Origin: a virus
DNA: 64,000 nucleotides
IMG/VR virus record: IMGVR_UViG_3300035189_000005
Coordinates: 1 to 64,000 of that record
Strand: one strand, 5' to 3'
The position numbers and the translations under genes were made by a program. Below the pieces are notes generated by a model. It saw only the letters and a list, made by a program, of their open reading frames with translations. It searched no databases and was not told the DNA's origin. This document shows, in pieces, positions 6,011 through 22,131 of this stretch (positions are counted from its first letter, which is position 1; every line of letters begins with the position of its first letter).

Positions 6011-7315
6011 TTACTCCGCAGGGATGATCCAACCGAACTTGCTTACCAGTTCGCCATGCAGTGCAACTCGTACACGAGCACGGGACACGGCCACGTAAAT
6101 CAAACGTGCAGCTTGCTCCGGGTCACGGCAGGTCGAAATATCCGACAAGTCGATGTACACGGTGTCATGGCTGCTGCCTTGGGCCTTGTAACTGGTGCAG
6201 GCATCACGCTGACGCAGATCTGGATACGTGTTCTTCAGATAGAAGTAACGGTTCCAGTTACGCATCTTGGCGTAATACTTGATCAGTTTGTCGAAGTGGT
6301 CACGATCAACAGGAACTGGGATACCTGCATACAACTCACCCAGTTTGTTTTCCAACGTGGCGAACCGAACTTCTAATTCCACGTTGTCGTCGATCTCATC
6401 CATCGACGAAGTGCGATCCAGATCAAAGATCCGAACTTCCTCTTCGACGGACAGACGCCCACCTTTCACTTGAAGGGCATTGTTGCTGATCAGCCATTCA
6501 CCCTTCTGGAAGTCTTCCGGCAGGTTACGCACCTGACGAATGAAGGCGTTGTAATCCAGCACCCTTTGGTTCGTGTAGGTGATGATCCGGTTGTTGTGAC
6601 CAGGATCGGCGAAGTTGGCGATGATCTCTGCTTCGAACTCTTCGTCGGTCAGGTGATCGATGATGCCCGGAACCAACTGGATACCAGTGAACTCCCCGGT
6701 CTCCACCGTGCGACGGAACTGTTTGTTCAGCTCGTGCAGGGCAGGAACGTTGGTCCGCATTGGTTCAGTCAGTTCGTAGAACTTGATGCCTTCGGTGTAG
6801 ATGACCGAGATCTTTTCCTTCACCGGGGCCAACTGACAGTGGTCACCGACGAATACCACTTTGCAGTTCAGCGTGCCTTCACGGATGAACTTACGCAGTG
6901 ATTTGTCGATCATGGAGCACTCATCGATAAAGATGATGAGGTTCTCATGGACCATCCACTGTTTGGTCTTGGTGATCTCCTGACGACCGGTTGCATAGTC
7001 ATCAGTCACCTTGAGGTTGAAGAAGCTGTGTACCGTCGAGACACTCCGACCAGTAGACAGGTGCAGTACCTCGGCAGCCTTGTTCGTGGTTGCCGTCATG
7101 ATGACGCCACGGTAAAGCGGCTTGATACCGGCCAGCTCACAGGCCCCTTCGTATTGCGGCATGATCTCATCGATCATGTGGCCCATCAGGAAGGTCTTGC
7201 CTACCCCACCTGGGCCAGAGATGTTCAGTTCTTTTTCATCACTGAACAGGAATTCAAAGAATCCCACGGAAGCCAGAGTCTGGCCCTCGTTCAGCTTAGA
7301 TGGTGCAGTTTCCAT
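6011..7315 (-). CDS. SF1B (Dda/RecD-like) DNA helicase
   Basis: GPGGVGKT, ATTNKAA, IDECSM, GDHCQLAPV, YKAQGSS, YVAVSRAR. Confidence 0.95.
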   Translation of the reverse strand: METAPSKLNEGQTLASVGFFEFLFSDEKELNISGPGGVGKTFLMGHMIDEIMPQYEGACELAGIKPLYRGVIMTATTNKAAEVLHLSTGRSVSTVHSFFNLKVTDDYATGRQEITKTKQWMVHENLIIFIDECSMIDKSLRKFIREGTLNCKVVFVGDHCQLAPVKEKISVIYTEGIKFYELTEPMRTNVPALHELNKQFRRTVETGEFTGIQLVPGIIDHLTDEEFEAEIIANFADPGHNNRIITYTNQRVLDYNAFIRQVRNLPEDFQKGEWLISNNALQVKGGRLSVEEEVRIFDLDRTSSMDEIDDNVELEVRFATLENKLGELYAGIPVPVDRDHFDKLIKYYAKMRNWNRYFYLKNTYPDLRQRDACTSYKAQGSSHDTVYIDLSDISTCRDPEQAARLIYVAVSRARVRVALHGELVSKFGWIIPAE

Positions 7316-17410: not shown

Positions 17411-17559
17411 TTGACAGCCCTCAGTTTGTTGCCCTTTTTGAGCCATACGGCAACAAGTTTGGCCTGTGTTTTGTGAACTACATACCATTCATTGCTGTAT
17501 GTAGGTAGTTGGCTTAGTCGCATACGGCAATTATCAATTGCCTGTTCCAAGGTAATCAT
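17407..17559 (-). CDS. 50 aa hypothetical protein
   Basis: Manual translation MITLEQAIDNCRMRLSQLPTY...RAVK; ATGA overlaps at both ends. Confidence 0.5.
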   Translation of the reverse strand: MITLEQAIDNCRMRLSQLPTYSNEWYVVHKTQAKLVAVWLKKGNKLRAVK

Positions 17560-17861
17560 TTGAGTTTCCCCCACTTACCCCGTGGACCTTTAGGGCCTTT
17601 GATCCTATCTGGCGATATTTCAGACTCAAACTGACTTACGCCCAAATGGTGCATAAGTACCCCCAATTGGCTCAGTGTTTTACCACTACCTCGTTCGGAC
17701 AACTTTTCCCACTCATCAAAGATGAGTGAGTCTACTTTATGGGCAGGAGGCAATTGCTCAGTATCTCCTGTGTAAAACAACACTTGTTCGTGGAGACTGA
17801 TCTTGAGTCTCTCCAATATAGCCGGGCTCATTGACCCAGTTACTAATACGATTGTTCGCAT
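17556..17861 (-). CDS. hypothetical protein
   Basis: SD GGAG before MRTIVLV, just after the terminator; AT-rich. Confidence 0.55.
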   Translation of the reverse strand: MRTIVLVTGSMSPAILERLKISLHEQVLFYTGDTEQLPPAHKVDSLIFDEWEKLSERGSGKTLSQLGVLMHHLGVSQFESEISPDRIKGPKGPRGKWGKLK

Positions 17862-17871
17862 ACTGTTCTCC

Positions 17872-17900
17872 AATAAAAAGAGGCCCACCGAAGTGGGCCT
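17872..17900 (-). terminator. intrinsic terminator closing the ncRNA array
   Basis: AGGCCCAC-TTCG-GTGGGCCT-CTTTTTATT on the minus strand. Confidence 0.85.
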
Positions 17901-17917
17901 AAAGGTCGGGAAAAATT

Positions 17918-18089
17918 CGGTGTATTGGTTGGATAACTTCACATTACGGAATCGAACCGTAGTTTCCAGTGCTTCGCTCTCAGAGGCCCTAACCTTACTC
18001 GCCAATATCAGCTTTCCTGGTGAGAACATGTAACTACTGGCTGTCGTACTTGCCACTATACGAATGAAAAGTTACCCACCAATACACCG
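17918..18089 (-). ncRNA. tRNA-like RNA D: extended acceptor helix, D arm, T arm, anticodon arm replaced by insert
   Basis: D arm GTAT-AGTGGCAA-GTAC (18046-18061), T arm TACGG-TTCGATT-CCGTA (17945-17961), terminal helix CGGTGTATTGGTGGGTAAC/GTTATCCA(A)CCAATACACCG. Confidence 0.75.
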
Positions 18090-18156
18090 TTGCTGCTAGT
18101 CCCCGGTGCACTGGGTACGTCAATTAAAGCCCGGACGCACACGGTCTATTCTTTTA

Positions 18157-18303
18157 ATGCATTGGTTGGATGTCCTAACGGGCAATCTTCGTGCGTTGAC
18201 TGGTAGCTAAACACAAGTCTTCACCTGCGCCTATTGAACTATTCAATCCCCCAGAGAGCTTTCCCTATCCTTGGCCTTCGGACCAGGACATCCACCAATG
18301 CAT
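18157..18303 (-). ncRNA. structured RNA C with the same terminal bulged helix, no tRNA arms
   Basis: ATGCATTGGTGGATGTCCT/AGGACATCCA(A)CCAATGCAT encloses several short hairpins. Confidence 0.65.
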
Positions 18304-18530: not shown

Positions 18531-18653
18531 GAGGGGGAGTAGGGAGTCGAACCCCACTTCCCTGGCCGCTAAGCCAGCTTAAATGCATAAGTCAACCAGA
18601 CAGCTACTTCCAGACTATCCATGGTTCGTCTGGACCTCGCTTGCATTCCCCCC
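18531..18653 (-). ncRNA. tRNA-like RNA B: acceptor stem, T arm and variable-arm-like hairpin, non-canonical D/anticodon region
   Basis: GGGGGGA/TCCCCCT, GTGGGG-TTCGACT-CCCTAC, CTGGC/GCCAG and TCCAGAC/GTCTGGA stems. Confidence 0.65.
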
Positions 18654-18659
18654 ATAAAA

Positions 18660-18858
18660 CTGGCATTGGATGGATGCCCTCTGTTGCTGGTATCGAACCA
18701 GCGTCTCATATGCTCACGACAGTTCTTCCAGAGCCTGTGCGATCTCTTACCTCAACGGAACCCGTCTTCAAGTACCTACCACAAGTTGCAACTGCCTAGT
18801 GTGAGCGTGAATCAGCGTCCTACCTTTGGACGATACAGAAGACATCCACCAATGCCAG
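18660..18858 (-). ncRNA. tRNA-like RNA A: extended acceptor helix, D arm, T arm, long rod in place of anticodon arm
   Basis: D arm GTCC-AAAGGTA-GGAC (18817-18831), T arm GCTGG-TTCGATA-CCAGC (18686-18702), terminal helix CTGGCATTGGTGGATGTC/GGCATCCA(T)CCAATGCCAG. Confidence 0.75.
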
Positions 18859-18915
18859 CTTGCTGCATTGTAGCTGCCGCTGGCATTGGGATTTACTGTT
18901 TACTCAGGGCGATGA

Positions 18916-19110
18916 TTACTCGCCGGACGCTTCGGAATCGGCCTTGTCGGCACGGTTCGAAACGGTCTGGAAGCTTTCCTCGACTTCGATGGCGGAACCA
19001 TCGTTGAAGTTGATTTCGGTGCCGTTCGGCAGTTCCGCGAAGTGGCTGACCTTGGACAGATCGACACGAACACGGAAGCCGGAACGCAGTTTCAGTTTGG
19101 TGAAAGCCAT
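18916..19110 (-). CDS. small FlbD-like beta protein
   Basis: MAFTKLK...VRVDLSKVSHF...GTEINFNDGSAIEVEES resembles the FlbD-family pattern; SD GGAG. Confidence 0.6.
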   Translation of the reverse strand: MAFTKLKLRSGFRVRVDLSKVSHFAELPNGTEINFNDGSAIEVEESFQTVSNRADKADSEASGE

Positions 19111-19168: not shown

Positions 19169-19402
19169 TCAGGCTTCTTTAGCAGAGGCAGAATTGCCCC
19201 GGCCAGTAGCCTTGTTGATGAAACCACGCACCGAACGCGGCGTGTCACTTACGTGATACACGCCGCCATTCGATAGACTGATGTGAGTACCCGAGGTCAC
19301 TGCACCATCACTGTCGGTTGCCGGAGCAAAACCAACGATGTGAGCAGTATTCAGGTCCACCTTCAGATTGGTGTCATTATCGACCACACGGATGTAGGTC
19401 AT
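19169..19402 (-). CDS. small FlbD-like beta protein (probable paralogue of the downstream gene)
   Basis: MTYIRV...VDLNTAHIVGF...GTHISLSNGGVYHVSDT; SD GGAG. Confidence 0.6.
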   Translation of the reverse strand: MTYIRVVDNDTNLKVDLNTAHIVGFAPATDSDGAVTSGTHISLSNGGVYHVSDTPRSVRGFINKATGRGNSASAKEA

Positions 19403-19438: not shown

Positions 19439-19936
19439 TCAGATGGACTCACGAGCAGGGACAGGTTCGTCCTCTTGGTTCTGGTACTTGCCCGAATAGA
19501 CAGCAGCCTCGACCACCTCGTGGAAAATCACTTGAGCAATGCCCGAACCAGCAGGGATGAGCAGTTCCTCTTCCCCGTGGTAGACAAGCTCCAGGGTCAA
19601 GAAACCGTTCCATCCCGGCTCGATTACGGTGTTGAATACGGACAGACCACGACGTGCCCAGGTGGACTTGTCGTGGACAATGCCGGTCAGGTTGGGTGGC
19701 ATCTGGAATTCTTCCATGGCCGAGGCCAAGCAGAACCGCCCGTCTTTCACGTATTCATCCGCAACATGGATGGTACGGATGTTGAAGGCATCACCTTTGA
19801 AGTGGATGTCCTGCTTAACCCGGATGTCATACCCGGCTTCACCCAAGCCATAGCTGGTGCCTTCGAACGATTTCTTCACTGCAACCATATCCTTGATAGG
19901 TGCAGCAGCCAGCAGTTGTAAGCCGTTGATGATCAT
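19439..19936 (-). CDS. dcd: dCTP deaminase
   Basis: GYDIR, KSTWARRGL, VIEPGWNGFLTLEL, IAQVIF, YSGKYQNQ. Confidence 0.9.
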   Translation of the reverse strand: MIINGLQLLAAAPIKDMVAVKKSFEGTSYGLGEAGYDIRVKQDIHFKGDAFNIRTIHVADEYVKDGRFCLASAMEEFQMPPNLTGIVHDKSTWARRGLSVFNTVIEPGWNGFLTLELVYHGEEELLIPAGSGIAQVIFHEVVEAAVYSGKYQNQEDEPVPARESI

Positions 19937-19938
19937 GA

Positions 19939-21084
19939 TCAGTTCCTGATGTAGATGACTTCGCCATATGTAGGCACATGCCCACCACCACGGCCAATCC
20001 TGATCCAAATGATGGGTACGTGCACTGTAGGTCGCACCATTGGTGTGACTTCCAGATCCGAGAAGATGATAGCAGCCGTTGGCTGGTGTTTTTCTATATG
20101 CTCACGCACACACACCAGCGATGTACCGCTGCCATGAGCATCAGTCACCACATCAAAGGAATCACTTTCCTCGAAGGTCTTCTCATCCATGATCCGGGTA
20201 TCGAACTGAACGAGGGTCAACTTCCGTGGATTGAATGTCTCCTTGATGTACTTCACCTCCGAGTTAAAGCGTAAACGCTCCTGGGCGGTGATGGATGCAG
20301 ACACATCAAGGTAGTAGATCAGGTGATCCAATCGGCCCTCTTCCTCGTAGGTCGATGGCAGATACATATTCGTGTAGCGGCGATTTGGACGAGCCCAAGT
20401 GTAGGCAATCTCGGCCAGATCACTGAAGAACTTGTACAGCAGGCCTTCCCACGGAACCACGGGAGTCAGGAACTTCTTGATGATCCCTTTGGTTCCACCA
20501 GGGACGGTGCCAGCTTGCCCACTGGCCTCGGCTGCTTGCACAGCTTTGACCACGTTGGCTATGCCCTTCAGAATGGTTTCTTCCGTTGGGTCACGCATAT
20601 CACCTTTACCCGCACCGGGTACACCCCAGGTAGGCTTGGGCTTGGCACCGCTATTGATGAGCAGGTCGTAGATGTCCTCTTCGACCATCCTCCCGCCTTT
20701 GTCCAGATCTGGATTAAGGCAGCACCACTCGATACCTTCGAAGGTATAGCCTTCCTTCTTCAGATCGTTGTTGATGCGATAGTCCGCTGCTTGGTTCCAG
20801 ATCTCTGGATCACGATTGCCACGACGGATCATATGCAACAGGCCTGGATGCCACAGCTCATGGGCCAGCACTGTTTTACGAGTGGCCGGCTTGAGTGACA
20901 GGAACCAATGGGGATTCCACCAGAGACTGACCCCATCGGTTTCAGCGGTTTGCACCGTCTCATCCCAGATGAATTCCAGGCTGCACATCAATGATCCAAG
21001 GAAAGCACCAGTGCCTCCGATGAACATCTGAGCCTTGGTCTTGTTGAGTTCCTCATTGAGAAACTGTTCGTCAATCTCTTGCAT
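19939..21084 (-). CDS. DUF2201-type metallopeptidase plus vWA-like protein (N4 gp25-like)
   Basis: TAETDG, HELWH (HExxH), WNQAADYRIN, DVSAS MIDAS-like motif. Confidence 0.85.
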   Translation of the reverse strand: MQEIDEQFLNEELNKTKAQMFIGGTGAFLGSLMCSLEFIWDETVQTAETDGVSLWWNPHWFLSLKPATRKTVLAHELWHPGLLHMIRRGNRDPEIWNQAADYRINNDLKKEGYTFEGIEWCCLNPDLDKGGRMVEEDIYDLLINSGAKPKPTWGVPGAGKGDMRDPTEETILKGIANVVKAVQAAEASGQAGTVPGGTKGIIKKFLTPVVPWEGLLYKFFSDLAEIAYTWARPNRRYTNMYLPSTYEEEGRLDHLIYYLDVSASITAQERLRFNSEVKYIKETFNPRKLTLVQFDTRIMDEKTFEESDSFDVVTDAHGSGTSLVCVREHIEKHQPTAAIIFSDLEVTPMVRPTVHVPIIWIRIGRGGGHVPTYGEVIYIRN

Positions 21085-21093
21085 GTGACCCCC

Positions 21094-22131
21094 TTATTTC
21101 AGGTACTGGGACAAGCGTTCCATACCCTTAGCGAATGCCGGGTGGGTACGCAGTTTGGGATGGTTGATCATCGCCATCCGGTAGAACAGCACCTGAAATG
21201 GCATGTCGAAGCGATTAGCGTAGGTGCACAGGCGGTCGAAGTTGTCCGCCTTGATGTGCTCCATGATCATCGACACTGTTGCCCAACGGGTATCGTTGTT
21301 GAATGGCAGCGGTGCACCTTCAGGATCACGCAGGATTTCCGTGATGGAAACCAGCGAGCCGTATACCTGGGCGAATTGCATGAACTCGACTGCCACGCCG
21401 GAGCTGATGGTGCCGGTGTAGAGCGGAGCTTTCGCAGGCACAACAGCTTTCCCTTGGATCAGCTTGTTCATGAACTCCCAGGTCCGAGGGCAACAGAACG
21501 TCTTCTCGGTGTGGTTGGGCTTGAAGTCCATCAGCTTCGATGGGTATTGGCTTAAGAAGCCAATGATGCGGCTGTCCCATTTCTGGGGCATTGCCACATC
21601 TTCCAGCCACTCTTCGAAGTTCAGCTTCAGTTCCAGGTGAATGATCCGGGACTGCATAGCAGTGCTGATCGGGTTCACGATGGACTTGTCGCTCATCAGG
21701 TTACCGGCAGCAGCCATCACTACGTTCGAGTGAAGGTTTTTCTGGCCGGTCATCCTATCCAGCACCAGCTTGAAAGCTGCGGCTTGCACCTGCTTCGAGG
21801 CAGCCGGGAACTCGTCGAGGAAGATCATCCAACCGTTCATGTCTTCAGGAATGTCATCCCCTTCGATTGGGAACAGGTCGGCAAATGGAGCGAACTCGGC
21901 TCGGCCTTGAGCATTGAAGTGAGGCAGGCCGGACAGGTCTTCAGGAGCCGAAGTAGATAGACGGTGGTCGATCAACTTCAGGCTGTTTTCCTTGGCGATG
22001 GAACGCATGATGGAAGACTTGCCCATGCCAGGAGAGCTGTGCAGATACGGCGTAAGCCCAGCTTCCATGACTTCCAAGGACATTTCCTTGGCCTGCCGTG
22101 GAGTGACTTGATACATGCTGACTTCAGACAT
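21094..22131 (-). CDS. MoxR-like AAA+ ATPase (N4 gp24-like)
   Basis: SSPGMGKS, FLDEF, AAGN, AMQSR, CPRTWE. Confidence 0.9.
   Translation of the reverse strand: MSEVSMYQVTPRQAKEMSLEVMEAGLTPYLHSSPGMGKSSIMRSIAKENSLKLIDHRLSTSAPEDLSGLPHFNAQGRAEFAPFADLFPIEGDDIPEDMNGWMIFLDEFPAASKQVQAAAFKLVLDRMTGQKNLHSNVVMAAAGNLMSDKSIVNPISTAMQSRIIHLELKLNFEEWLEDVAMPQKWDSRIIGFLSQYPSKLMDFKPNHTEKTFCCPRTWEFMNKLIQGKAVVPAKAPLYTGTISSGVAVEFMQFAQVYGSLVSITEILRDPEGAPLPFNNDTRWATVSMIMEHIKADNFDRLCTYANRFDMPFQVLFYRMAMINHPKLRTHPAFAKGMERLSQYLK

What the first reader, a model, noticed from the sequence alone, without database searches (positions are those of the whole stretch)
17918..18089. RNA D: canonical tRNA elbow with a branched insert replacing the anticodon loop
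Seen: acceptor-like TTTTCAT/ATGTGAA, U8, D arm with A14 and G18G19 (GTAT-AGTGGCAA-GTAC), T arm TACGG-TTCGATT-CCGTA and variable-like AAAC. The anticodon position is a CCAGT/ACTGG stem enclosing roughly 65 nt with its own hairpin (CTCACCA/TGGCGAG). I found no simple intron excision that restores a standard anticodon arm. Inference: a natural tRNA scaffold displaying a functional RNA domain.
Basis: partly seen in the sequence, partly recalled or inferred. Interest (0 to 1): 0.75.

Follow-up and report, generated by a model that had tools for sequence, protein, structure and literature searches.

The report
Stem-closed tRNA mimic in N4-like phage
A soil (peat) phage related to coliphage N4 carries a small RNA gene that keeps the whole core of a tRNA, but its ends are locked into a long helix and its anticodon arm is replaced by a long hairpin, so it probably cannot read codons; it belongs to a little-described group of "stem-closed" phage RNAs whose job is unknown.

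Summary
On the minus strand at 18089-17918 there is a 172-nt fold (MFE -67.2 kcal/mol, z = -6.0). It has a tRNA-type acceptor stem, D arm and T arm, and every core tRNA invariant outside the anticodon loop is present. Only two places in the 64-kb window show this combination, RNA D and its paralog RNA A; shuffled sequence gives about 0.005.

Two points need correcting. The acceptor stem runs on into an 18-bp bulged closing helix, so the transcript has no free CCA end. The insert folds as one unbranched irregular hairpin, not a branched domain.

It is not a tRNA, an intron-bearing tRNA, a tmRNA or a YrlA Y RNA by ARAGORN and Rfam. The complete 74-kb N4-like phage encodes no Ro60, DUF2828, RtcB, CCA-adding enzyme or RNase III.

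The closing helix, with a GCAUUGG/CCAAUGC box, recurs on 13 RNAs with unrelated cargo in at least 9 N4-like phages. All lie at the locus where other N4-like phages carry real tRNA genes.

Best reading: a non-decoding, tRNA-derived stable RNA mounted on a shared handle. No ortholog and no expression data were found, so its function is inferred. This scan has noted similar stem-closed phage RNAs on other DNA. Novelty: a new variant of a known kind.

The parts
17918..18089 (-). RNA D, whole stem-closed unit (172 nt)
   Evidence: MFE fold z = -6.0. The covariance model (R1) built from it scores 208.7 bits on itself and 48.4 bits on paralog RNA A.
18071..18089 (-). Closing helix, 5' strand (CGGUGUAUUGGUGGGUAAC), with box GUAUUGG
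   Evidence: Pair probabilities about 1. The duplex with the 3' strand is -37 kcal/mol.
17918..17937 (-). Closing helix, 3' strand (GUUAUCCAACCAAUACACCG); bulged A at 17930; one G.U pair that would be an A.C mismatch on the other strand
18064..18070 (-). Acceptor-like stem, 5' strand UUUUCAU (U.U mismatch at 18067/17941)
18046..18063 (-). U8, C9 and D arm GUAU-AGUGGCAA-GUAC (A14, G15, G18, G19, A21)
   Evidence: Read directly from the sequence. Pair probabilities at least 0.98. Regex test.
18041..18045 (-). Five-nucleotide linker GACAG where a tRNA has only N26
   Evidence: In the MFE, GA pairs with U8/C9 to lengthen the D stem.
17966..18040 (-). Rod replacing the anticodon arm: stem CCAGU/ACUGG plus a 65-nt insert, predicted as one irregular hairpin of about 27 pairs
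   Evidence: folded alone -22.4 kcal/mol; helix probabilities 0.87 to 1.0. No comparative support.
17962..17965 (-). Variable-region equivalent AAAC (C48 partner of G15)
17945..17961 (-). T arm UACGG-UUCGAUU-CCGUA
   Evidence: This is the only part that touches any Rfam model, a local match to a tmRNA T arm at 6.7 bits.
17938..17944 (-). Acceptor-like stem, 3' strand AUGUGAA. It is followed by GUUA, so there is no CCA at positions 74-76.
17872..17900 (-). Intrinsic terminator (8-bp stem, UUCG loop, U tract) that ends the RNA array 17 nt after RNA D
18090..18096 (-). Heptamer GCAGCAA directly 5' of the closing helix. The same heptamer sits in the same place before RNA A (18866-18860).
18659..18859 (-). 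RNA A, the paralog: same handle, acceptor, D arm and T arm, with a longer unrelated insert
   Evidence: R1 hit at 48.4 bits, E about 1e-11, full length. Also.
18157..18303 (-). RNA C: the same closing helix with non-tRNA cargo. It has an ortholog in Pseudomonas phages Zuri and Holyagarpour.
   Evidence: Ten compensatory pairs against Zuri.

Best explanation
RNA D is a real small-RNA gene: a tRNA-derived tRNA mimic that cannot decode.

Context. It is the last unit of a roughly 1-kb polycistronic array of separately folded RNAs (A, B, E, C, D). The array lies on the middle-gene strand of a complete 74-kb N4-like phage, at the position where other N4-like phages carry true tRNA genes.

Anatomy. 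The RNA keeps every element needed for the tRNA L-shape: acceptor stem, D arm, T arm, the G18G19/U55C56 elbow, U8-A14 and G15-C48.
- The acceptor stem is extended by an 18-bp bulged helix formed by the 5' and 3' ends.
- The anticodon stem-loop is replaced by a 75-nt irregular hairpin.

Inferred mechanism.
1. The array is transcribed as one precursor that stops at the terminator after RNA D.
2. The closing helix, whose outer box GCAUUGG/CCAAUGC is conserved across phages, is the shared handle. It isolates each unit's fold, marks where the precursor is cut, and protects both ends from exonucleases.
3. The finished RNA is a stable L-shaped molecule. Its elbow can dock to host factors that recognise tRNA shape rather than the anticodon, such as RNase P, TruB/TrmA-type modifiers, or tRNA-directed defence or repair proteins. 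The rod is the unit-specific part.
4. It therefore acts as a decoy or adaptor, not as an amino-acid carrier.

Shown: the fold, the tRNA invariants, the paralogy with RNA A, the handle family, synteny with tRNA genes, and the lack of any tRNA, tmRNA or YrlA call.

Inferred: transcription, processing, stability, and the partner proteins.
For: Fold and tRNA core:
- Fold stability and tRNA invariants.
- Only RNA A and RNA D in 64 kb combine D arm, T arm and acceptor stem in tRNA order; shuffles give 0.005.
- The T arm is followed directly by an acceptor-plus-closing helix of -35 and -46 kcal/mol only in D and A, among about 90 N4-like loci.
- The RNA D model R1 finds RNA A full length at 48 bits.

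The handle family:
- 13 closing helices in at least 9 phages, -34 to -46 kcal/mol.
- The outer box is conserved, the distal pairs differ but stay complementary, and G.U pairs occur only on this strand.
- Compensatory pairs are seen in the Meara-type family (13 pairs) and in RNA C against Zuri (10 pairs).

Genomic context:
- True tRNA genes occupy the same position after the dCTP deaminase gene in other N4-like phages: L091 has five, L064 has Pro, L006 has Arg and Leu.
- A strong terminator follows RNA D.

Exclusions:
- No tRNA or tmRNA call.
- No Rfam family, and no YrlA.
Against: - No ortholog of RNA D was found: blastn against phages, a pattern scan of IMG/VR, and R1 over about 0.9 Mb of N4-like loci. 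The rod therefore has no covariation support and could be young or neutral.
- I have no expression or processing data for this phage or its relatives.
- The phage encodes none of the obvious partner enzymes, so any partner is a host protein or an unrecognised phage protein.
- The Rfam tRNA model gives no local hit at E <= 10.
- After the insert is removed, ARAGORN accepts the cloverleaf only at the 80% threshold. The core is therefore somewhat off-consensus: a 5-nt linker and a U.U mismatch in the acceptor stem.
- A database gene call (P0001, 149 aa) overlaps the 3' half of RNA D.
Confidence: 0.6

Rival explanations
1. Y-RNA-like adaptor. The closing helix with its conserved bulge is the docking site of a ring-shaped Ro60-type protein, from the host or an unrecognised phage protein. 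The tRNA-like module recruits a second factor, as in Ro60-Y RNA-PNPase particles.
For: - Architecture matches the general definition of Y RNAs: a long stem made by the 5' and 3' ends with a conserved bulged helix, variable modules, several paralogs in tandem, and at least one with a tRNA-like domain (PMC4201824; 10.1101/312249).
- The box is conserved in sequence while the rest of the helix only covaries, which suggests sequence-specific recognition.
- The bulge lies at the same register, 8 bp beyond the acceptor stem, in both A and D.
- YrlA-type RNAs were reported in 22 phages (PMC4201824).
Against: - No TROVE/Ro60 and no DUF2828 in the complete phage genome.
- Rfam YrlA RF02553 does not match.
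- I did not see the YrlA motif GNCGAAN0-1G in RNA D.
- The topology is the opposite of YrlA. YrlA is circularly permuted, with the Ro stem at the anticodon position and a closed acceptor stem. RNA D runs D arm, rod, T arm, with the long stem at the acceptor end.
- The host is unknown, so a host Ro60 cannot be checked.
Confidence: 0.15
2. Cis-acting punctuation. The unit has no trans function. The tRNA-like fold and closing helix serve only as RNase P or RNase III cleavage signals and as 3' stabilisers for the upstream mRNAs, in the manner of t-elements or mascRNA-type 3' end formation.
For: - The units lie in a polycistronic context on the gene strand, with a terminator only at the end.
- The helices are about two turns long, the size of RNase III substrates.
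- tRNA-like structures are known RNase P signals for 3' end formation (10.1101/312249, introduction).
Against: - Five units in a row after the last upstream gene are far more than punctuation needs.
- The interior of RNA C is conserved, with compensatory changes, across phages whose gp25 proteins are only 54% identical. That points to function in the cargo itself.
- RNA D follows other RNAs, not an mRNA.
Confidence: 0.12
3. Precursor of a working tRNA. The closing helix and the insert are both removed, by RNase III or RNase P and some splicing activity, to give a decoding tRNA.
For: - The core is a complete cloverleaf.
- At the 80% threshold, ARAGORN reads paralog RNA A as tRNA-Val(CAC) with U33, G37 and an 88-nt intron.
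- With 58 nt removed, RNA D is called a tRNA at the same relaxed threshold.
Against: - Bacterial and phage tRNA introns are group I introns of about 200 nt or more. The insert here is 65 nt, and no intron family matches.
- No deletion that leaves a 7-nt loop gives a loop with U33.
- ARAGORN places introns only at position 37/38 by design, so the position in RNA A is not independent evidence. That reading also needs a G.G mismatch and competes with a much more stable 6-bp helix.
- There are 5 nt between the D stem and the next stem.
- No CCA is encoded at positions 74-76.
- The phage has no ligase (RtcB) or CCA-adding enzyme.
Confidence: 0.05
4. DNA-level element. The 'closing helix' is a pair of terminal inverted repeats of small mobile or recombining cassettes (MITE-like), and the RNA fold is incidental.
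For: - The units are bounded by inverted repeats with a conserved outer box.
- Cargo and unit order differ between related phages: RNA C sits before the B-type unit in Zuri but after it here.
- Stray half-boxes (CCAAUGC) lie upstream of the first unit in this phage, Zuri and Ebordelon.
Against: - All units have one orientation at one locus.
- The helices contain G.U pairs that would be A.C mismatches on the other strand.
- The tRNA invariants are strand-specific and lie on the transcribed strand.
- Interior helices covary.
- No transposase and no target-site duplication were seen.
Confidence: 0.04

Closest known systems
YrlA-type bacterial and mycobacteriophage Y RNAs (Rfam RF02553; Chen et al. 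2014, PMC4201824; structure preprint 10.1101/312249)
   Same: - A non-coding RNA that keeps the tRNA D arm, T arm and tertiary-contact nucleotides.
- It has no free CCA end and no anticodon loop.
- A long stem is formed by the 5' and 3' ends.
- Several modular paralogs are encoded in tandem.
- The type also occurs in phages.
   Different: - YrlA is circularly permuted (T arm, closed acceptor hairpin, D arm), and its long stem leaves from the anticodon position. RNA D keeps the tRNA order, and its long stem prolongs the acceptor stem.
- There is no RF02553 match, no GNCGAA motif, and no Ro60 gene nearby or anywhere in the phage.
D. radiodurans Yrn1 and the tRNA-like domain of tmRNA
   Same: Same connectivity: the 5' and 3' ends pair at the acceptor side, and a large element is inserted where the anticodon arm would be, between D-side and T-side elements. 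For Yrn1 this is described in PMC4201824. For tmRNA it rests on general knowledge of tmRNA architecture.
   Different: - Yrn1 and tmRNA lack a full D arm; RNA D has a canonical one.
- tmRNA has a free alanine-accepting CCA end with G3:U70, pseudoknots and a tag reading frame. None of these is present here, and ARAGORN makes no tmRNA call at default settings.
Stable small RNAs of phage tRNA clusters (T4 RNAC and RNAD, 'species 1 and 2')
   Same: Small non-coding RNAs encoded with or in place of phage tRNA genes, co-transcribed, and of unknown function (PMC9697503 calls them RNAs of yet unknown function).
   Different: I know of no sequence or structural relation, and I could not compare them directly because no T4 locus was fetched. 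I am not aware of a shared bulged closing helix being reported for the T4 RNAs.
Stem-closed RNA units noted earlier in this scan in N4-like coliphages and large phages (e1-175695, e1-144507, e1-5340144, e1-5641951)
   Same: Arrays of separately folded RNAs in phage tRNA regions, each closed by a conserved helix, with swappable cargo that often derives from tRNA.
   Different: - Those are unverified AI notes about other genomes.
- The large-phage family has a 7-bp stem plus an ACAGCAA handle and travels with a DUF2828 Ro60-like gene, which is absent here.
- Here the handle is an 18-bp helix with a GCAUUGG/CCAAUGC box, and GCAGCAA lies outside the helix on its 5' side.

Membership tests
Canonical tRNA (ARAGORN; Rfam RF00005) | Cloverleaf core: 7-bp acceptor stem, D arm with A14, R15, G18, G19 and A21, T arm with G53, T54, Psi55, C56, R57, A58 and C61, U8, and a 15-48 pair | tested here: met
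   Read from the sequence. Pair probabilities. Regex plus shuffle test. The acceptor stem has one U.U mismatch.
Canonical tRNA (ARAGORN; Rfam RF00005) | 5-bp anticodon stem with a 7-nt loop (U33, anticodon, R37), one nucleotide after the D stem | tested here: not met
   There are 5 nt after the D stem, then a 5-bp stem enclosing 65 nt.
Canonical tRNA (ARAGORN; Rfam RF00005) | Single-stranded discriminator and a CCA 3' end, encoded or addable | tested here: not met
   Positions 73-76 read GUUA and are paired within the closing helix. Whether processing later frees an end cannot be tested here.
Canonical tRNA (ARAGORN; Rfam RF00005) | Recognised by standard detectors | tested here: not met
   ARAGORN found 0 genes in the window. 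Rfam gave no hit at gathering score or at E <= 10.
Intron-containing tRNA (bacterial/phage group I intron type) | The insert has a group I intron core (about 200 nt or more; Rfam Intron_gpI) | tested here: not met
   The insert is 65 nt, and no intron family matches at E <= 10.
Intron-containing tRNA (bacterial/phage group I intron type) | Excision restores a standard anticodon arm | tested here: not met
   ARAGORN -i at default gives none. At the 80% threshold it still makes no credible call for RNA D. All eight 7-nt-loop excision constructs fail at default settings, and none has U33.
YrlA / bacterial Y RNA (Rfam RF02553) | Match to the YrlA covariance model | tested here: not met
   No match in the whole phage genome or in the local E <= 10 scans.
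YrlA / bacterial Y RNA (Rfam RF02553) | Permuted order: V region, T arm, closed acceptor hairpin, D arm, with the Ro-binding stem at the anticodon position | tested here: not met
   RNA D runs acceptor, D arm, rod, T arm, acceptor. The YrlA order is taken from PMC4201824 and 10.1101/312249.
YrlA / bacterial Y RNA (Rfam RF02553) | A Ro60 (TROVE) gene within about 4 kb on the same strand | tested here: not met
   PF05731 is absent from the complete 74,181-bp genome. DUF2828 is also absent.
YrlA / bacterial Y RNA (Rfam RF02553) | A long terminal stem with a conserved bulged helix shared by modular paralogs | tested here: met
   RNAs A, C and D share the helix, the box and the 3'-strand bulge.
tmRNA | tRNA-Ala-like acceptor stem with G3:U70 and a CCA end, a tag reading frame, and pseudoknots | tested here: not met
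   ARAGORN makes no tmRNA call at default. Position 3-70 is U.G, and there is no CCA. A permuted call appears only at the 80% threshold and spans RNAs C and D.
Closing-helix RNAs of Zuri-like N4-like phages (defined here) | An 18-26-bp helix formed by the unit's two ends, with the outer box GCAU(U/C)GG / CC(A/G)AUGC (D variant: GUAUUGG/CCAAUAC) | tested here: met
   13 units, -34 to -46 kcal/mol. RNA D is -37 kcal/mol. L075b shares the GUAU variant.
Closing-helix RNAs of Zuri-like N4-like phages (defined here) | Located in the non-coding island downstream of the dCTP deaminase gene, on the gene strand | tested here: met
   For the window. For Zuri, Ebordelon, Holyagarpour, Meara, Arace01, UCB24, L060 and L075. 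The neighbouring genes of L208 were not examined.

The most novel reading that the evidence does not exclude
N4-like phages of the Zuri group carry a modular RNA system. A conserved bulged helix (the handle) carries interchangeable cargo. In this phage two cargoes are complete tRNA cores whose anticodon arm has been replaced by a unit-specific rod. On this reading they are natural 'tRNA scaffolds' that the phage uses to present RNA domains to, or to soak up, host proteins that recognise tRNA shape. Candidates are tRNA-directed defence nucleases or RNA-surveillance proteins. That would make them an undescribed class of phage counter-defence or host-takeover RNAs.
Probability: 0.2. Interest if true: 0.8.

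Novelty: new variant of a known kind. Interest (0 to 1): 0.55.

Why it matters
tRNA mimicry by non-coding RNAs is known (YrlA, tmRNA, viral tRNA-like structures), but in most cases the partners and purposes are unclear.

This RNA shows a third way of rebuilding a tRNA: normal order, sealed acceptor end, and anticodon arm replaced. It sits in a family in which one conserved helix carries very different cargo across phages.

Three relatives with handle-bearing RNAs are cultured: Meara on Pseudomonas putida, UCB24 on Erwinia amylovora, and Arace01 on P. syringae. Zuri and Ebordelon carry other units. The roles of the handle and of tRNA-like cargo can therefore be tested directly.

If the RNAs prove to be decoys or adaptors for host tRNA-binding proteins, they would add an RNA layer to phage-host conflict. 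They would also offer a natural design for stable RNA display.

If they are only processing signals, the finding is a useful annotation. These regions are now left blank or covered by spurious gene calls.

Tried and rejected
Searches for orthologs of RNA D, all blank:
- blastn of the whole array against 50,697 phage records.
- A D-arm-to-T-arm pattern in IMG/VR.
- Model R1 over about 0.9 Mb of N4-like loci and the rest of the genome, which found only paralog RNA A and the handle of L060.
- blastn of the 3' half, which gave only chance 20-mers.

Searches for relatives and family members:
- The RNA C core 17-mer in IMG/VR gave 48 loci. Only Zuri was a true match; the rest were an unrelated prophage gene.
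- A handle pattern in metagenome contigs gave 75 loci, about the chance expectation, with one true new member, L208.
- gp25 alone as query for related loci gave only 4. The downstream ORFan protein has no relatives.
Closer relatives seen in the protein search, such as P0003 at 85% identity, could not be fetched.

Expression: no RNA holder is listed. A single DNA run from a peat metagenome, probably the source, holds the sequence.

Tests on RNA D itself:
- ARAGORN with introns and relaxed thresholds gave no credible call. One 'tRNA-Stop' call with a 556-nt intron joins RNA B and RNA D and is an artefact.
- A GGUCCGA match in RNA C to the vertebrate Ro60-contact motif is rejected as chance. In Zuri the equivalent hairpin keeps its structure but not that sequence.
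- I considered that the NCCA inside the box is a hidden tRNA-type 3' end. The two members found without using CCAAT as a search term have CCG and CCU instead, so this stays only an idea.

Context checks:
- The LUZ7 small RNAs (PMC9163698) lie at a different, late locus.
- FlbD-like small genes occur next to these arrays but also in N4-like phages that lack the GCAUUGG/CCAAUGC-box handle, so they are not a specific partner.
- The scan of bacterial genome contigs was not spent. A handle pattern short enough to be general would give thousands of chance hits.

Full report
**What the window is.** The window is 64 kb of a complete 74,181-bp virus record with direct terminal repeats.
- The genes around the finding are the N4 gp24-type AAA ATPase (21094-22131, minus strand), the gp25-type DUF2201 protein (19939-21084, minus), a dCTP deaminase (19439-19936, minus) and ThyX.
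- gp25 finds 560 Schitoviridae records. The closest are Pseudomonas phages Ebordelon, Holyagarpour and Zuri, at 54% identity.
- The only sequencing run that holds the stretch is a peat metagenome.

**The observation.** Read on the minus strand, 18089-17918 runs in this order:
1. A 19-nt 5' strand (CGGUGUAUUGGUGGGUAAC).
2. UUUUCAU, then U8 and C9.
3. The D arm GUAU-AGUGGCAA-GUAC.
4. The linker GACAG.
5. CCAGU, 65 nt, ACUGG.
6. AAAC.
7. The T arm UACGG-UUCGAUU-CCGUA.
8. AUGUGAA.
9. The 3' strand GUUAUCCAACCAAUACACCG.

Every tRNA invariant outside the anticodon loop is present: U8, A14, G15, G18, G19, A21, Y11-R24, C48 (the partner of G15), G53, U54, U55, C56, G57, A58 and C61.

- The MFE (-67.2 kcal/mol, z = -6.0, 0 of 200 shuffles as good) reproduces the cloverleaf. 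Pair probabilities are 0.9 to 1.0 for nearly all pairs of the acceptor stem, D stem, T stem and CCAGU/ACUGG stem.
- A regex requiring the D-arm and T-arm invariants, with paired stems, in tRNA order finds two sites in the window on both strands, RNA D and RNA A. Both have at least 6 of 7 acceptor pairs. 200 shuffles gave a mean of 0.005. This is not chance.

**Corrections to the description.**
1. The acceptor stem does not end. It continues through 7 pairs, a bulged A (17930) and 11 more pairs into a closing helix formed by the two ends of the unit. The transcript therefore has no free acceptor end, and positions 73-76 read GUUA, not NCCA.
2. The insert is not branched in the energy model. The predicted shape is a single irregular hairpin of about 27 pairs. 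There is no homolog to settle this by covariation.
3. Five nucleotides separate the D stem from the next stem.

**What it is not.**
- *A tRNA or tmRNA.* ARAGORN finds neither in the window. Rfam 15 gives nothing at gathering score. At E <= 10 it gives only terminator look-alikes and a 6.7-bit local match of the T arm.
- *An intron-bearing tRNA.* With introns allowed, ARAGORN still finds nothing at default settings. At the 80% threshold it reads RNA A as tRNA-Val(CAC) with an 88-nt intron, but it gives only an artefact for RNA D. The eight constructs with 58 nt removed pass only at 80%, and none has U33. Bacterial and phage tRNA introns are group I introns several times longer than this insert (my own knowledge), and no intron family matches.
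- *A YrlA Y RNA.* The model RF02553 has no match in the phage. YrlA is also circularly permuted, with the Ro60 stem at the anticodon position and a closed acceptor hairpin (PMC4201824; 10.1101/312249). RNA D keeps the tRNA order.
- *Partner enzymes.* The phage has no TROVE, DUF2828, RtcB, CCA-adding enzyme or RNase III.

**Context within the genome.** RNA D is the last of a row of folded units on the same strand (A, B, E, C, D). The row lies behind two small FlbD-like genes and ends at a strong terminator (17900-17872).
- The covariance model R1, built from RNA D alone, finds RNA A (18859-18659) full length at 48.4 bits. RNA A shares the handle, acceptor stem, D arm and T arm but has a different, longer insert.
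- RNA C (18303-18157) shares the first 15 nt of its handle with RNA A but has no tRNA parts.
- The heptamer GCAGCAA lies directly 5' of the handle of both A and D.

**Context in other phages.** Relatives have a non-coding gap of roughly 400-700 bp downstream of the dCTP deaminase gene. I found 13 units in at least 9 phages closed by helices of 18-26 bp (-34 to -46 kcal/mol).
- The phages are this one, Zuri and Holyagarpour, Ebordelon, Meara, Arace01, Erwinia phage UCB24, and the uncultured L060, L075 and L208.
- The outer box is GCAU(U/C)GG / CC(A/G)AUGC.
- Most have a 1-nt bulge or mismatch 7-9 bp into the helix.
- The distal sequences all differ yet stay complementary.
- G.U pairs appear only on this strand.
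- The cargo differs widely. RNA C has an ortholog in Zuri with 10 compensatory pairs.
- Four phages share a T-arm-bearing cargo with 13 compensatory pairs.
- L075b carries RNA D's GUAUUGG/CCAAUAC variant of the box around unrelated cargo.
- Only RNA A and RNA D place a complete tRNA core directly on the handle.
- In other N4-like phages the same position holds real tRNA genes: five in L091, Pro in L064, Arg and Leu in L006.

The simplest history is that tRNA genes of this island were converted into non-decoding RNAs and mounted on a handle common to the island's other RNAs.

**How it most likely works.**

*Shown:*
- a stable, strand-specific fold with an intact tRNA core;
- a sealed acceptor end and no anticodon loop;
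- one paralog in the genome;
- a handle family with covariation;
- synteny with tRNA genes.

*Inferred:*
- The array is one transcript of the phage's middle genes.
- The handle isolates each fold, marks the cuts and blocks exonucleases.
- The mature RNA is an L-shaped molecule with two long arms, roughly 30 stacked pairs each.
- Its elbow can engage host proteins that read tRNA shape.
- The rod is the unit-specific surface.

I put 0.6 on this general reading. The rivals differ mainly in what the handle is for.
- **Ro60-type docking (0.15).** It fits the conserved box and bulge, but every specific YrlA or Ro60 test failed.
- **Pure processing signals (0.12).** It fits the helix length but not the conserved cargo.
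- **Maturation to a working tRNA (0.05).**
- **DNA-level inverted repeats (0.04).**

**Novelty and limits.**
- tRNA mimics and unexplained stable RNAs in phage tRNA clusters are known (YrlA; T4 RNAC/RNAD, PMC9697503).
- Large catalogues mention tRNA-like phage structures without detail (PMC10690425).
- Four literature searches found no description of these N4-like stem-closed units.
- Earlier notes of this scan describe similar stem-closed RNAs in N4-like coliphages and large phages, so this kind has been seen before on other DNA.
- RNA D itself is an orphan.

I class it as a new variant of a known kind, with interest 0.55.

Noticed in passing
window 17556-18005 (minus strand): The protein database holds a 149-aa gene call (P0001) whose N-terminal part runs through the terminator and the 3' half of RNA D. 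A start at ATG 17861, behind GGAGAA, gives a 101-aa ORFan and looks more plausible. The protein has no relatives.
   Followed up: partly
window 19169-19402 and 18916-19110 (minus strand); L075:940-1137; L059:5687-5932: Small FlbD-like proteins lie directly upstream of the RNA arrays (Pfam FlbD E = 2e-4 for the Meara copy, below the cut-off). An HMM built from them finds copies in 12 N4-like phages (15 hits in all), with and without GCAUUGG-handle RNAs. They belong to the same variable island but are not a specific partner.
   Followed up: partly
window about 18440-18385 (minus strand); L001:7255-7310; L002:7505-7556: A conserved leader (AUAGGUGG.CAC..CCUUCC.AGUGU, then a Shine-Dalgarno sequence) precedes gene gp46 in Zuri and Ebordelon. 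Here it precedes only ATG-TAT-TAG, followed by RNAs C and D. It looks as if the RNA cassette displaced the gene. Unit order also differs between the phages.
   Followed up: no
window 18879-18889 (minus strand); L001 about 6964-6975; L002 about 7171-7182: A stray 3' half of the box (CCAAUGC) lies upstream of the first unit in three phages. It can pair with the 5' strand of that unit's handle, giving an alternative hairpin. This may be a scar of cassette exchange or a regulatory alternative fold.
   Followed up: no
window 18531-18653 (minus strand); L001 about 7190-7255; L075 about 1690-1730: RNA B has an acceptor-like stem plus a T arm (GGUUCGACUCC) and a CUUAGCGGC hairpin, with no D arm. It has relatives in Zuri and L075, so it is a second conserved tRNA-derived unit, of tmRNA-like layout.
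   Followed up: partly
L215:5828-5905 (genome 69828-69905, plus strand): ARAGORN predicts one ordinary tRNA-Gln(UUG) in the 10 kb of the phage genome outside the window, far from the RNA array.
   Followed up: no
L064:5916-6393: ARAGORN calls a permuted tmRNA (tag ANDDAFAPQLRLAA) next to a tRNA-Pro downstream of the dCTP deaminase gene of another N4-like phage.
   Followed up: no
window 18096-18090 and 18866-18860 (minus strand): The heptamer GCAGCAA sits immediately 5' of the closing helix of both tRNA-core units (D and A), but not of RNA C. Earlier notes of this scan describe a CAGCAA motif in handles of a different phage RNA family linked to DUF2828 proteins. Here the motif lies outside the helix, and DUF2828 is absent.
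   Followed up: partly
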